In this document: piece by piece, positions 1 to 37,500 of the stretch
Layout: each line of letters starts with the position of its first letter
Numbering within the stretch: position 1 is the stretch's first letter
NCBI RefSeq assembly: GCF_009914755.1
Contig: NC_060931.1
DNA length: 64,000 nucleotides
Source: the human T2T-CHM13v2.0 reference genome, Homo sapiens
Reading direction: 5' to 3' (one strand)
Notes under the pieces: generated by a model
What the model was told of the DNA's origin: nothing
The model's input: the letters and a program-made list of their open reading frames with translations, nothing else
Databases searched by the model: none
Translations under genes and position numbers: made by a program

Positions 1-3000
1 AACAAAGCCTCCAAGAAATATGGGACTATGTGAAAAGACCAAATCTACGTCTGATTGGTGTACCTGAAAGTGACGGGGAGAATGGAACCAAGTTGGAAAA
101 CACTCTACAGGATATCATCCAGGAGAATTTCCCCAACCTAGCAAGGCAGGCCAACATTCAAATTCAGGAAATACAGAGAACGCCACAAAGATACTCCTCG
201 AGAAGAGCAACTCCAAGACACATAATACACATAATTGTCAGATTCACCAAAGTTGAAATGAAGGAAAAAATGTTAAGGGCAGCCAGAGAGAAAGGACGGG
301 TTACCCACAAAGGGAAGCCCATCAGACTAACAGCTGATCTCTCGGCAGAAACTCTACAAGCCAGAAGAGAGTGGGAGCCAATATTCAACATTCTTAAAGA
401 AAAGAATTTTCAACCCAGAATTTCATATCCAGCCAAACTAAGCTTCATAAGTGAAGAAGAAATAAAATCCTTTACAGACAAACAAATGCTGAGAGATTTT
501 TGTCACCACAAGGCCTGCCCTAAAAGAGCTCCTGAAGGAAGCACTAAACATGGAAAGGAACAACCGGTACCAGCCACTGCAAAATCATGCCAAATTGTAA
601 AGACCATTGAGACTAGGAAGAAACTGCATCAACTAACGAGCAAAATAACCAGCCAACATCATAATGACAGGATCAAATTCAAACATAACAATATTAACCT
701 TAAATGCAAATGGGCTAAATACTCCGATTAAAAGACACAGACTGGCAAATTGGATAATGAGTCAAGACCCATCAGTGTGCTGTATTCAGGAAACCCATCT
801 CACATGCAGAGACACACACACACTCAAAATAAAGGGATGGAGGAAGATCTACCAAGCAAATGGAAAACAAAAAAAGGCAGGGGTTGGAATCCTAGTCTCT
901 GATAAAACAGACTTTAAAGCAACAAAGATCAAAAGAGACGAAGAAGGCCATTACACAATGGTAAAGGGATCAATTCAACAAGAAGAGTTAACGATCCTAA
1001 ATATATATGCACCCAATACAGGAGCACCAGATTCATAAAGCAAGTCCTTAGAGACTACAAAGAGACTTAGACTCCCACACAATAATAATGGGAGACTTTA
1101 ACACCCCACTGTCAACATTAGACAGATCAATGAGACAGAAAGTTAATAAGGATATCCAGGAATTGAACTCAGCTCTCCACCAAGCGGACCTAATAGACAT
1201 CTACAGAACTCTCCACCCCAAATCAACAGAATATACATTCTTCTCAGCACCACACCACACCTAGTCCAAAATTGACCACATAGTTAGAAGTAAAGCACTC
1301 CTCAGCAAATGTAAAAGAACATAAATTATAACAAACTGTCTCTCAGACCACAGTGCAACCAAACTGGAACTCAGGATTAAGAAACCCACTCAAAACTGCT
1401 CAACTACATGGAAACTGAACAACCTGCTCCTGAATGACTACTAGGTACATAACAAAATGAAAGTAGAAATAAAGATGTTCTTTGAAACCAGTGAGAACAA
1501 AGACACAACATACCAGAATCTCTGGGACACATTTAAAGCAGTGTGTAGAGGGAAATTTATAGCAATAAATGCCCACAAGAGAAAGCAGGAAAGATCCAAA
1601 ATTGACACCCTAACTTCACAATTTAAAGAACTAGAGAAGCAAGAGCAAACACATTCAAAAGCTAGCAGAAGGCAAGAAGTAACTAAGATCAGAGCAGAAC
1701 TGAAGGAGATAGAGACATAAAAAACCCTTCAAAAAAATCAATGAATCCAGGAGCTGCTTTTTTGAAAAGATCAACAAAACTGATAGACCACTAGCAAGAC
1801 TAATAAAGAAGAAAAGAGAGAAGAATCAAATAGACGCAATAAAAAATGATAAAGGGGGTATCACCACCAATCCCACAGAAATACAAACTACCATCGGAGA
1901 ATACTATAAACACCTCTACATAAATAAACTAGAAAATCTAGAAGAAATGGATAAATTCCTCGACACATACACCCTCCCAAGACTAAACCAGGAAGACGTT
2001 GAATCTCTGAATAGACCAATAACAGGCTCTGAAATTGAGGCAATAATTAATAGCTTACCAACCAAAAAAAGTCCAGGACCAGACAGATTCACAGCTGAAT
2101 TCTACCAGAGGTACAAAGAGGAGCTGGTACCATTCCTTCTGAAACTATTCCTATCAACAGAAAAAGAGGGAATCCTCCCTATCTCATTTCATGAGGCCAG
2201 CATCATCCTGATACCAAAGCCTGGCAGAGACACAACAAAAAAAGAGAATTTTAGACCAATATCCTTGATGAACATTGATGCAAAAATCCTCAGTAAAATA
2301 CTGGCAAACCGAATCCAGCAGCACATCAAAAAACTTAGCCACCATGATCAAGTGGGCTTCATCCCTGGGATGCAAGGCTGGTTCAACATATGCAAATCCA
2401 TAAACATAATCCAGCATACAAACAGAACCAACGACAAAAACCACATGATTACCTCAACAGATGCAGAAAAGTTTGACAAAATTCAATAGCCCTTCATGCT
2501 AAAAACTCTCAATAAATTAGGTATTGATGGGACGTATCTTAAAATAATAAGAGCTATCTATGACAAACCCACAGCCAATATCATACTGAATGGGCAAAAA
2601 CTGGAAGCATTCCCTTTGAAAAGTTGCACAAGACAGGGATGCACTCTCTCACCACTCCTATTCAACATAGTGTTGGAAGTTCTGCCTAGCGCAATCAGGC
2701 AGGAGAAAGAAATAAAGGGTATTCAATTAGGAAAAGAGGAAGTCAAATTGTCCCTGTTTGCAGATGACATGACTCTTTTTCTAGAAAACCCCATCATCTC
2801 AGCCCAAAATCTCCTTAAGCTGATAGGCAACTTCAGCAAAGTCTCAGGATACAAAATCAATGTGCAAAAATCACAAGCACTCTTATACACCAATAACAGA
2901 CAAACAGAGAGCTAAATCATGAATGAACTCCCATTCACAATTGCTTCAAAGAGAATAAAATACCTAAGAATCCAACTTACAAGGGACGTGAAGGACCTCT

Positions 3001-34500: not shown

Positions 34501-37500
34501 TAACAAAATGAAAGTAGAAATAAAGATGTTCTTTGAAACCAGTGAGAACAAAGACACAACGTACCAGAATCTCTGGGACACATTTAAAGCAGTGTGTAGA
34601 AGGAAATTTATAGCACTAAATGCCCACAAGAGAAAGCAGGAAAGATCCAAAATTGACACCGTAACAACACAATTAAAAGAACTAGAGAAAAGTAAAAACT
34701 TCAAAAGCTAGCAGAAGACAACAAATAACTAAGGTCAGAGCAGAACTGAAGGAGACAGAGATACAAAAAAACCCTTCAAAAAAATCAATGAATCCAGGAG
34801 CTGGTTTTTTGAAAAGATCAACAAAATAGATGGACCACTAGCAAGACTAATAAAGAAGAAAAGAGTGAAAAATCAAGTAGATGCAATAAAAAATGATAAA
34901 GGGATATCACCACCAATCTCACAGAAATACAAACTACCATCAGAGAATATTATAAACACCTCTACACAAATAAACTAGAAAATCTAGAAGAAATGGATAA
35001 ATTCGTGGACACATACACCCTCCCAAGACTAAACCAGGAAGTAGTTGAATCTCTGAATAGAACAATAACAGGTTCTGAAATTTAGGCAGTAATAGCCTAC
35101 CAACCAAAAAAAGTCCAGGACCAGAAAGATTTACAGCCGAATTCTACCACAGGTACAAAGAGGAGCTGGTACCATTTTTTCTGAAATTATTCCAATCAAT
35201 AGAAAAACAGGGAATCCTCCCTAACTCATTTTATGAGGCCAGCATCATCCTGACACCAAAGCCTGGCGGAGACAAAACAAAAAAAGAGAATTTTAGGCCA
35301 ATATCCCTGATAAACATCAATGTGAAAATCCTCATTAAAATACTGGCAAACCAAATCGAGCAGCACATCAAAAAGCTTATCCACCACAAGCAAGTCTTCT
35401 TCATCCCTGGGATGCAAGGCTGGTTCAACATATGCAATTCAATAAACATAATCCATCACATAGACAGAACCAATAACAAAAACCACGATTATCTCAATAG
35501 ATGCAGAAAAGGCCTTTGACAAAATTCAACAGCCTTTCATGCTAAAAACTCTCAATAAAATAGGTATTGATGGAATGTATCTCAAAATAATAAGAGCCAT
35601 TTATGACAAATCCACAGCCAATATCATACTGAATGGGGAAAAACTGGAAGCATTCCCTTTGAAAACTGGCACAAGAAAAGGATGCCCTCTCTCACCATTC
35701 CTATTCAACATAGTGTTGGAAGTTCTGGCCAGGGCAATCAGGCAGGAGAAAGAAATAAAGGCTATTCAATTAGGAAAAGAGGAAGTCAAATTGTCTCTGC
35801 TTGCAGATGACATGATTGTATATCTAGAAAACCCCATCGTATCAGCCCAAAAATCTCCTTAAGCTGATAAGCAACTTCAGCAAAGTCTCAGGATACAAAA
35901 TCAATGTGCAAAAATCACAAGCATTCCTATGTACCAAGAATAGAGAGCCAAATCATGAGTGAACTCCCATTCAAATTACTATAAGGAGAATAAAATACCT
36001 AGGAATCCAACTTACAAGGGATGTGAAGGAACTCTTCAAGGAGAACTACAAACTACTGCTCAACAAAATAAAAGAGGACAGAAATGGAAGAACATTCCAT
36101 GCTCATGGATAGGAAGAATCAATATCATGAAAATGGCCATACTGCCCAAGGTAATTTATAGATTCAATGCCATCCCCATTAAGCTACCAATGACTTTCTT
36201 CACAGAATTGGAAAAAACTACTTTAAAGTTCATATGGAACCAAAAAAGAGCCTGCATGGCCAAGTCAATCCTAAGCCAAAAGAACAAAGCTGGAGGCATC
36301 ACACTACCAGACTTCAAACTATACTATAAGGCTACAGTAACCAAAACAGCATGGTACTGGTACCAAAACAGAGATATAGACCAATGGAACAGAACAGAGC
36401 CCTCAGAAATAACACCACACATCTACAACCATCTGATCTTTGACAAACCTGACAAAAACAAGAAATAGGGAAAGGATTCCCTATTTAATAAATGGTGCTG
36501 GGAAAACTGGCTAGCCATATGTAGAAAGCTGAAACTGGATTCCCTTCCTTACACCTTATACAAAAATTAACTCAAGATGGATTAAAGACTTAAATGTAAG
36601 ACCTAACACCATACAAACCCTACAAGAAAACTTAGGCAATACCATTCAGGACATAGGCATTGGCAAAGACTTCATGACTAAAAACACCAAAAGCAATGGC
36701 AACAAAAGCCGAAATAGACAAATGGGATCTAATTAAACTAAAGAGCTTCTGCACAGCCAAAGTAACTATCATCAGAGTGAACAGGCAATCTACAGAATGG
36801 GAGAAAAATTTTGCAATCTATCCATCTGACAAAGGACTAATATCCAGAATTGACAAAGTACTTAAACAAATTTATAAGAAAAAAACAACCCCATCAAAAA
36901 ATGGGCAAAGGATATAAATGGACACTTCTCAAAAGAAGACATTTATGCAGCCAACAGCCATATGAAAATATGCTCATCATCACTGACCATCAGAGAAATG
37001 CAAATCAAAACCACAATGAGATACCATCTCACACCAGTTAGAATGGCGATCATTAAAAAGTCAGGAAACAACAGGTGCTGGAGAGGATGTGGAGAAATAG
37101 GAACACTTTTACACTGTTGGTGAGACTGTAAACTGGTTCAACCATTGTGGAAGACAGTGTGGCGATTCCTCAAGAATCTAGAACTAGAAATACCATTTGA
37201 CCCAGCCATCCCATTACTGGGTATATACCCAAAGGATTATAAATCATGCTGCTATAAAGACCCATGCACATGTATGTTTATTGTGGCACTATTCGCAATA
37301 GCAAGACTTGGAACCAACCCAAATATCCATCAATAATAGACTGGATAATGGAAATGTGGCACGTATACACCAAGGAATATTATGCAGCCATAAAAAAGGA
37401 TGAGTTCATGTGCTTTGCAGGGACATGGATGAAGCTGGAAACCATCATTCTCAGCAAAATTATCACAAGGACAGAAAACCTAACACCACATGTTCCCACG

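What the first reader, a model, noticed from the sequence alone, without database searches (positions are those of the whole stretch)
1409..34560. 101-bp identical tract, including a shared premature stop, between two L1s of different age 33 kb apart
Seen: 1409-1509 (L1-A) and 34460-34560 (L1-B) are base-for-base identical, although the elements differ visibly elsewhere and have different 3'UTR types. Both read tac TAG gta cat aac Aaa atg aaA gTa gaa...acc aGt gag. L1-C (44988-45040, -) has tac TGG gta cat aac gaa atg aag gca...acc aat gag, matching the L1 consensus as I remember it. An ORF2-killing stop (1442-1444 and 34493-34495) is very unlikely to come from a shared active parent. Further A/B-only matches: tactaTaagg (about 3296/36327), aactGgttc and caagAatc (about 4116-4156 / 37135-37175). 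Inference: non-allelic gene conversion between neighbouring L1 copies after insertion.
Basis: partly seen in the sequence, partly recalled or inferred. Interest (0 to 1): 0.8.

Follow-up and report, generated by a model that had tools for sequence, protein, structure and literature searches.

The report
Short gene-conversion patch between two L1s
Two old, separately inserted L1 retrotransposon copies 33 kb apart in an ELMO1 intron share a 49-101 base patch carrying a set of mutations found together nowhere else in the genome, most likely copied from one to the other by DNA repair, which is a clean example of a process already known.

Summary
Window 1409-1509 and 34460-34560 are identical over 101 bases, inside two full-length L1PA copies that are 89.7% identical overall. 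Each copy has its own target-site duplication.

Four non-CpG alleles lie within 49 bases: TGG>TAG stop, aaG>aaA, gCa>gTa and aAt>aGt. They occur in 0-1 of 26 young and 0-1 of 12 old L1PA panel copies. A search of the whole 3.1-Gb assembly for the 54-mer spanning them found only these two copies. None had 1-2 mismatches and 42 had exactly 3. No other copy carries more than two of the four alleles.

Chance, a shared sub-lineage and segmental duplication are therefore rejected. The best reading is a short (49-101 base) non-allelic gene conversion between neighbouring same-strand L1s. The direction is unresolved, with B to A mildly favoured.

- The alleles at 4116-4156 are a minor L1 lineage state seen in unrelated copies.
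- Site 3296 is a single site.
- Most A=B sites are retained old-subfamily alleles.

Gene conversion between dispersed repeats is already described, so this is a new instance, not a new mechanism. It could not be checked against reads or other primates.

The parts
1..4736 (+). L1-A, a full-length L1PA copy cut by the left edge of the window. It begins about 1,443 bases upstream. Intermediate subfamily age.
   Evidence: Aligns to L1-C over 6,032 bases at 92.1% from window -1314 to 4701. Pfam finds ORF1 Transposase_22 (3-728), Exo_endo_phos (649-1035) and RVT_1 (1713-2912). Old state at 78 and young state at 25 of 106 diagnostic sites; private divergence 2.7%.
4737..4748 (+). 3' target-site duplication of L1-A (AAGAAAATATTT). 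The 5' copy lies 1,444-1,455 bases upstream of the window.
   Evidence: Read from the flanks printed.
1409..1509 (+). Maximal shared tract in L1-A (101 bases identical to L1-B).
1443..1491 (+). Minimal tract in L1-A. Four non-CpG alleles private to A and B (A1443, A1462, T1464, G1491) plus the CpG-type A1454.
   Evidence: 0-1 of 26 young and 0-1 of 12 old panel copies carry each non-CpG allele; the combination is unique to A and B genome-wide.
1442..1444 (+). In-frame TAG stop in ORF2 of L1-A, between the endonuclease and reverse-transcriptase domains.
31548..31563 (+). 5' target-site duplication of L1-B (16 bases; 2 mismatches to the 3' copy).
31564..37723 (+). L1-B, a full-length L1PA copy of an older subfamily.
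   Evidence: Aligns to L1-C over 6,084 bases at 86.1%. Old state at 93 of 106 diagnostic sites; private divergence 5.8%.
37724..37739 (+). 3' target-site duplication of L1-B.
34460..34560 (+). Maximal shared tract in L1-B.
34494..34542 (+). Minimal tract in L1-B (the same five alleles).
34493..34495 (+). The same in-frame TAG stop in L1-B.
41770..47928 (-). L1-C, a younger full-length L1PA copy on the opposite strand. Comparator only; it lacks the haplotype.
   Evidence: Young state at 66 of 106 diagnostic sites.
4110..4242 (+). A/B stretch of 133 bases with one mismatch (B: 37129-37261). Not evidence of exchange.
   Evidence: One search shows the stretch. One search finds 3,593 genomic matches at <=3 mismatches and a third exact copy. 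One search shows that unrelated copies L059 and L060 carry the same allele combination.

Best explanation
After both elements had inserted independently in the same orientation 33 kb apart in an ELMO1 intron, a DNA break or lesion in one L1 copy was repaired using the other copy as template. This was non-allelic, intrachromosomal gene conversion, most simply by synthesis-dependent strand annealing. A patch of 49-101 bases was copied, carrying the donor's private mutations, including an ORF2 stop codon, into the recipient.

Shown: the two copies are independent insertions of different subfamily age; the patch is identical; its four non-CpG alleles occur together nowhere else in the assembly.

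Inferred: the repair mechanism, and the direction. B to A is favoured by roughly 2-5 to 1, because B's private mutation density (5.8%) fits 4-5 mutations in the patch better than A's (2.7%). The event has no evident function, because both copies were already dead L1s with several other frame breaks.
For: (1) Identity: 101 of 101 bases, in elements 89.7% identical overall. P(max run >= 101) is 0.0026 by global shuffle and 0.032 by block shuffle.

(2) Independent insertions: each copy has different flanks and its own target-site duplication.

(3) Different lineage positions: B is old at 93 of 106 diagnostic sites, and A is old at 78 and young at 25. The two states are intermixed along A with no mosaic pattern.

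(4) Private shared alleles: A1443, A1462, T1464 and G1491 are carried by 1/26, 0/26, 0/26 and 0/26 young panel copies and by 1/12, 0/12, 0/12 and 0/12 old panel copies.

(5) Genome-wide uniqueness: the 54-mer spanning the alleles has 2 exact places (A and B), 0 places with 1-2 mismatches and 42 with 3. No other copy has more than two of the four non-CpG alleles.

(6) Expected count by chance: the unmutated background 54-mer occurs 247 times. Single-allele derivatives number 20, 5, 7 and 3. The expected number of four-allele copies is therefore about 1.4e-4 (my arithmetic), against 2 observed, and those 2 lie 33 kb apart.

(7) Clustering: 4 of 9 shared-rare non-CpG sites fall within 49 bases, P = 0.0008.

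(8) Control pairs: A-C share 4 and B-C share 2 such alleles, all scattered, against 13 for A-B.

(9) Outside the tract, within the stretch where the old panel is 12 deep (1134-1760), A=B alleles are carried by 9-12 of 12 old copies, apart from the CpG-type site 1397 (4 of 12). They are retained ancestral states, so the tract stands out sharply.

(10) The process is known: conversion between dispersed repeats depends on distance and identity (PMC6598467 passages; preprint 10.64898/2026.08.26.747289 section 9). L1-templated break repair with tracts as short as 13 bases is cited in PMC1920257 (passage).
Against: - No independent sequence could be consulted (reads, another human assembly, other primates), so the pre-conversion state was never seen and an assembly error is not formally excluded.
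- The run-length test alone is only moderately significant when local rate is preserved (P = 0.032).
- The copies are only about 90% identical, which is low for efficient homologous repair (recalled general knowledge), although they were more alike when the event happened.
- Four of the five transferred alleles are G/C to A/T, which is opposite to GC-biased conversion.
- The direction is not resolved. Point likelihood ratios for B versus A as donor are 4.8 for a 49-base tract, 0.94 for four mutations in 101 bases and 2.0 for five in 101 bases.
- The pattern search is ungapped and allows at most 3 mismatches. A further carrier with an indel or more than 3 extra changes would be missed.
Confidence: 0.85

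Rival explanations
1. Assembly or polishing artefact: one copy's sequence was wrongly written over the other in this assembly.
For: No call could examine reads or a second assembly, so this rival remains untested. The tract is short, like a local correction.
Against: The two elements differ at 543 of 4,790 aligned columns and have unique flanks, so long reads should place unambiguously. Both tract edges fall at sites where A and B each keep their own state. It is an inference from general knowledge of the assembly method that reads from one copy would not map better to the other.
Confidence: 0.04
2. Shared descent or chimeric birth. Either A and B come from one rare source lineage that carried the haplotype, or A's cDNA switched templates onto a transcript of B during insertion.
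For: A different allele combination, at 4116-4218, did turn out to be a minor lineage state shared by unrelated copies, so such lineages exist.
Against: No third copy in 3.1 Gb carries more than two of the four alleles. A stop in ORF2 would hinder a source element. A and B differ at 25 subfamily-diagnostic sites, and A shares none of B's other private changes nearby. Two template switches within about 100 bases, followed by landing 33 kb from the template's gene, is far less simple than local repair (inference).
Confidence: 0.05
3. Both copies were converted by a third L1 donor that is now deleted or absent from this haplotype.
For: It cannot be excluded from a single genome. It would explain why neither direction is clearly favoured.
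Against: It needs two conversion events with near-identical limits plus the loss of the donor. No donor exists in the assembly.
Confidence: 0.03
4. Parallel mutation at hypermutable sites, for example cytidine-deaminase editing of both cDNAs, produced the same alleles twice.
For: Each allele recurs singly elsewhere: the TAG 24-mer has 66 places genome-wide. Two of the changes are G>A in a GG context. Isolated shared-rare alleles occur in control pairs.
Against: The expected count of four-allele copies is about 1.4e-4. The changes are of mixed type (G>A, C>T, A>G). Only one other copy combines TAG with aaA. There are no other A/B differences in 101 bases, although about 9 would be expected from the private rates.
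Confidence: 0.01

Closest known systems
Non-allelic gene conversion between Alu elements (partial and full conversions; Kass 1995 and Roy 2000 as cited in PMC6598467, passages seen; Alu Ye examples in PMC554112, passages seen)
   Same: A short patch of one dispersed retroelement copy is replaced by sequence from another, moving several linked mutations together. The rate depends on distance and identity.
   Different: Here the partners are 6-kb L1 copies of two older subfamilies only about 90% identical. The patch lies in ORF2, and it moves private decay mutations, not subfamily-diagnostic ones.
[quoted passage not shown] 2000; seen only as a citation and a sentence in PMC1920257; the paper itself is not held)
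   Same: L1 copies serve as repair templates for one another. Short tracts (down to 13 bases) are reported there.
   Different: That was an induced break in cultured cells. This is a fixed germline event inferred from sequence.
Ectopic gene conversion between paralogous sequences in the human genome (preprint 10.64898/2026.08.26.747289; abstract and section 9 read)
   Same: Intrachromosomal donor-acceptor pairs tens of kb apart show a strong conversion signal.
   Different: That work concerns ongoing recurrent conversion, strongest in highly identical segmental duplications. This is one old event between diverged repeats.
Intrachromosomal gene conversion inside an L1 locus (locus NCLI34 in PMC1920257; passage seen)
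   Same: An L1 segment whose best match lies elsewhere on the same chromosome is explained by conversion.
   Different: That segment was 377 bases at a rearranged insertion. Here both copies are structurally intact and only 49-101 bases moved.

Membership tests
LINE-1 (L1PA lineage) retrotransposon copies | ORF1 with L1 RNA-binding domains; ORF2 with endonuclease and reverse-transcriptase domains | tested here: met
   on L1-A reading-frame pieces: Transposase_22 E = 9.9e-62, Tnp_22_dsRBD 6.4e-34, Exo_endo_phos 6.3e-08, RVT_1 2.6e-12 and 2.9e-19. L1-B and L1-C were assigned by alignment to A, not scanned separately.
LINE-1 (L1PA lineage) retrotransposon copies | Insertion by target-primed reverse transcription: A-rich 3' tail and flanking target-site duplication | tested here: met
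   A has a 12-base duplication and B a 16-base duplication with 2 mismatches. No clear duplication was found for C.
LINE-1 (L1PA lineage) retrotransposon copies | Named subfamily (L1PA3-PA8 and so on) by comparison with curated consensus sequences | not testable with these tools
   No Dfam or Repbase library is on hand. Only the relative order B (oldest), A, C, then the youngest panel was established, from 106 diagnostic sites.
Non-allelic (interlocus) gene conversion tract | Donor and acceptor are distinct paralogous loci whose flanks and copy number are unchanged | tested here: met
   Separate target-site duplications and flanks; both elements are full length.
Non-allelic (interlocus) gene conversion tract | A tract of identity longer than the surrounding divergence allows | tested here: met
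   101 bases. P = 0.0026 by global shuffle and 0.032 by block shuffle.
Non-allelic (interlocus) gene conversion tract | Linked derived alleles shared by the pair and absent from other family members | tested here: met
   Four non-CpG alleles in 49 bases, unique as a set in 3.1 Gb.
Non-allelic (interlocus) gene conversion tract | Pre-conversion state seen in an orthologous locus or another haplotype, which gives direction and date | not testable with these tools

The most novel reading that the evidence does not exclude
The patch may be one of several exchanges among the three full-length L1s of this intron. All three copies show an unexplained shortage of private mutations in A coordinates 3214-3513: 7 observed against about 31 expected, with only a mild dip in genome-wide panels. 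In that stretch B carries a 'young' diagnostic state at 3272 and shares the rare T3296 with A. If real, L1 copies only 86-92% identical and tens of kb apart, on either strand, would keep exchanging sequence over millions of years. That could be often enough to bias divergence-based dating and subfamily calls of old L1s.
Probability: 0.12. Interest if true: 0.45.

Novelty: new member of a known kind. Interest (0 to 1): 0.3.

Why it matters
It is an unusually clean single-locus demonstration that old, diverged L1 copies can still exchange short patches. The transferred alleles are private decay mutations, so subfamily structure cannot mimic the signal, and a whole-genome search shows the set is unique.

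Events like this:
- add false shared mutations to L1 phylogenies and age estimates;
- can create multi-nucleotide differences between species or haplotypes that look like clustered mutations;
- show that intronic repeats act as repair templates for each other.

There is no sign of any effect on ELMO1 or on L1 activity, because both copies were already inactive. The mechanism itself is established, so the general interest is modest.

Tried and rejected
The 50-mer 4110-4159 has 3,593 genomic matches at <=3 mismatches, a third exact copy, and 42 one-mismatch copies. Two unrelated copies, L059 and L060, carry the same G4116/A4135/A4154/A4156/T4218 combination. Rejected as evidence of exchange.

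(2) Site 3296. The allele is rare in both panels (0/29 and 0/8), but it is a single site. Control pairs show the same kind of isolated sharing (A-C 4, B-C 2). Left undecided.

(3) A broader mosaic in A. Old and young diagnostic states are intermixed along A, with no block structure. Rejected.

(4) Segmental duplication. Rejected on the separate target-site duplications and the 11% A/B divergence.

(5) A hotspot motif near the tract. A recalled 13-mer recombination-hotspot motif has 5 matches in the window against 0.89 expected, but none lies within 3 kb of either tract. No support.

(6) Donor direction from subfamily-diagnostic sites. Old and young panels show no diagnostic difference inside 1409-1509 except at the five tract sites and one change private to C, so direction could not be read this way.

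It was replaced by short stretches, so the old panel is only 4-8 deep beyond position 1760.

(9) Two papers were not held: Myers 2002 and Tremblay 2000.

(10) I ran no literature search for this specific locus, so I make no claim about whether it is in print.
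Full report
**Observation.** Window 1409-1509 and 34460-34560 are identical at all 101 bases. The neighbouring bases differ: 1408 A against 34459 G, and 1510 A against 34561 G. Both copies read TAG at 1442-1444 / 34493-34495, in the frame that gives [29 protein letters not shown]. The third L1 in the window (C, minus strand) reads TGG, cG, aaG, gCa and aAt at the corresponding places. 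A search of the window's own assembly with the 101-mer gave 100% identity only at these two places. The next best of the 40 candidates scored (of 1,102 found) were 97%.

**What the elements are.**
- L1-A aligns to L1-C from 1,314 bases upstream of the window to 4701, 92.1% over 6,032 bases.
- L1-B aligns to L1-C from 31714 to 37728, 86.1% over 6,084 bases.
- All three are therefore full-length elements of about 6 kb.
- Pfam finds the L1 ORF1 domains, the endonuclease domain (649-1035) and the reverse transcriptase domain (1713-2912) in reading-frame pieces of A. The tract lies in ORF2 between the two enzymatic domains.
- A's ORF2 is in at least six pieces in more than one frame, so the TAG is one of several breaks.
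- A is flanked by a 12-base direct repeat and B by a 16-base repeat with two mismatches. The flanks are otherwise unrelated.
- They are thus separate insertions on the plus strand, antisense to ELMO1 according to the hub's annotation, and not parts of a duplication.
- A and B are 89.7% identical and A and C are 93.7% identical over the 3' 4.7 kb.

**Polarising the differences.** Three sequences cannot show which state is derived, so I collected two panels from the same assembly:
- A 'young' panel: 29 copies found with A as query. They differ from their own majority at about 1% of sites.
- An 'old' panel: the best matches to B. This is 12 copies for 661 bases around the tract and 4-8 copies for the rest.

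There are 70 sites at which A=B but C and the young majority differ. Most are simply the older-subfamily state. In the stretch with the 12-deep old panel, the A/B allele outside the tract is carried by 9-12 of the 12 old copies, apart from CpG-type sites.

At 106 sites where the two panels differ, B has the old state at 93, A at 78 and C at 39. A's 25 young states are intermixed with old ones along the element. So the order of age is B, then A, then C, as expected for successive L1PA subfamilies. Most A/B agreement is shared ancestry of the lineage, not exchange.

**The tract is different.**

| Site | Young panel | Old panel | Type |
|---|---|---|---|
| A1443 | 1/26 | 1/12 | non-CpG |
| A1462 | 0/26 | 0/12 | non-CpG |
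| T1464 | 0/26 | 0/12 | non-CpG |
| G1491 | 0/26 | 0/12 | non-CpG |
| A1454 | 1/26 | 5/12 | CpG decay, uninformative |

A whole-assembly pattern search for the 54 bases spanning the five sites found two exact places (A and B), no place with one or two mismatches, and 42 with three. By my tally of that list:
- 20 copies have only the CpG allele plus AGT, 5 only plus TAG, 7 only plus aaA, and 3 only plus gTa.
- The remaining 7 have other combinations.
- No copy has more than two of the four non-CpG alleles.

The background form, with the CpG allele and none of the four, occurs 247 times. Under independence the expected number of four-allele copies on that background is 20x5x7x3/247^3, or about 1.4e-4. 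Two are seen, 33 kb apart.

Four of nine shared-rare non-CpG sites fall within 49 bases (P = 0.0008). The same criterion applied to the control pairs gives 4 sites for A-C and 2 for B-C, all scattered, against 13 for A-B.

- the chance that a 49-base stretch of an old copy holds four private changes (about 0.16);
- the chance that the partner matches all four (about 5.5e-7);
- the chance of no other difference in the remaining 96 bases (about 1.5e-4, from the rates);
- about 100 positions per pair.

This gives about 1e-9 per pair, which is negligible even for a million pairs. It is my estimate, not a tool result.

**Extent, direction and date.**
- Extent: the tract is at least 1443-1491 (49 bases) and at most 1409-1509 (101 bases). 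At 1408 B has a private G (all 12 old copies have A) that A lacks. At 1510 each copy keeps its own state.
- No internal direction marker: there is no old/young diagnostic site inside the tract.
- Direction from mutation density: B has 5.8% and A 2.7% private changes over 3,588 sites. The point likelihoods for B versus A as donor are 4.8 to 1 for four changes in 49 bases, about 0.94 to 1 for four in 101, and 2 to 1 for five in 101. B to A is therefore only mildly favoured.
- Date: no difference has arisen in the tract since the event. If the tract is the full 101 bases, that puts the event within roughly the later half of A's residence time. This is my arithmetic from the rates and is a weak bound.

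**Mechanism.** The simplest account is homologous repair of a lesion in one copy using the nearby same-strand copy as template, without crossover. That is non-allelic gene conversion. It is inferred from the pattern and was not observed directly.

What the literature seen here says:
- Passages of PMC6598467 state that conversion between dispersed elements depends on distance and identity, and moves linked mutations together.
- Section 9 of preprint 10.64898/2026.08.26.747289 reports a stronger conversion signal for intrachromosomal pairs, still high at 10-100 kb.
- A passage of PMC1920257 cites cell-culture repair of a break in a LINE by conversion from other LINEs, with tracts down to 13 bases. 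It also describes an intrachromosomal conversion within an L1 locus.
- A passage of preprint 10.64898/2026.05.14.725010 lists gene conversion among the processes that blur old L1 histories.

Searches.

**Rivals.**
- Parallel mutation is excluded by the counts above.
- A shared rare lineage is excluded by the absence of any third carrier, and by the fact that A shares none of B's other private changes nearby.
- A template-switch chimera, or a lost third donor, is possible but needs more steps.
- An assembly error cannot be tested here. It is unlikely given 543 differences in 4,790 columns between the copies and their unique flanks.

- The 133-base A/B stretch at 4110-4242 has one mismatch, but its alleles are not private. 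A4135 and A4154 belong to an abundant form, the 50-mer has a third exact copy, and there are 3,593 matches at <=3 mismatches. Unrelated copies on two chromosomes carry the same five-allele combination.
- T3296 is rare in both panels, but it is one site.
- 'Different 3'UTR types' is not supported. A has the old state at nearly all diagnostic sites from 4416 to 4693, as B mostly does.

**Unexplained.** In A coordinates 3214-3513 the three local copies have 2, 4 and 1 private changes, where about 8, 17 and 6 are expected. Genome-wide panel copies show only a mild dip there. This may reflect further exchange among the three copies, or chance. I could not resolve it.

**Verdict.** The phenomenon is a new instance of a known process, with modest general interest. 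Confirmation needs reads, other human haplotypes and primate orthologues.

Noticed in passing
window 3214-3513 (L1-A), 36245-36545 (L1-B), about 43265-42965 (L1-C): All three local L1 copies have very few private changes here: 7 in total against about 31 expected. Genome-wide panel copies show only a mild dip. Possibly further exchange among the copies; unresolved.
   Followed up: partly
window 32080-32699: The RefSeq 'enhancer' feature given by the hub lies wholly inside the 5' part of L1-B, which spans 31564-37723.
   Followed up: no
window 4116-4218; L059 (G000:C7:124660863-124662112); L060 (G000:C1:190429177-190430426): The allele combination G4116/A4135/A4154/A4156/T4218 recurs in unrelated L1 copies. 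It therefore marks a minor L1PA lineage sampled by neither of my panels.
   Followed up: yes
window 3436 / 36467 / 43042: L1-B and L1-C share an A where both panels have only G (0/29 and 0/8). This is an isolated shared-rare allele between a pair with no other sign of exchange, and it serves as a background example.
   Followed up: partly
window 3984-3993: L1-A has a 10-base insertion that is absent from B, C and nearly all panel copies. One old-panel copy has a similar insertion.
   Followed up: no
G000:C10:55140441, C13:50291142, C20:12469162 (one search list): Three copies on different chromosomes share an identical 54-mer variant (GTAAAT with aaA and AGT). This suggests another small L1 lineage or duplicated segments.
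   Followed up: no
window 12299-19726: A much older L1 fragment series, about 68-73% identical to L1-A, lies between exon 11527-11631 and L1-B.
   Followed up: no
window 6354, 18536, 22358, 24339, 37569: A recalled 13-base recombination-hotspot-type motif occurs 5 times against 0.89 expected from shuffles. The only match inside these L1s is in the 3' end of L1-B, 3 kb from the tract.
   Followed up: no
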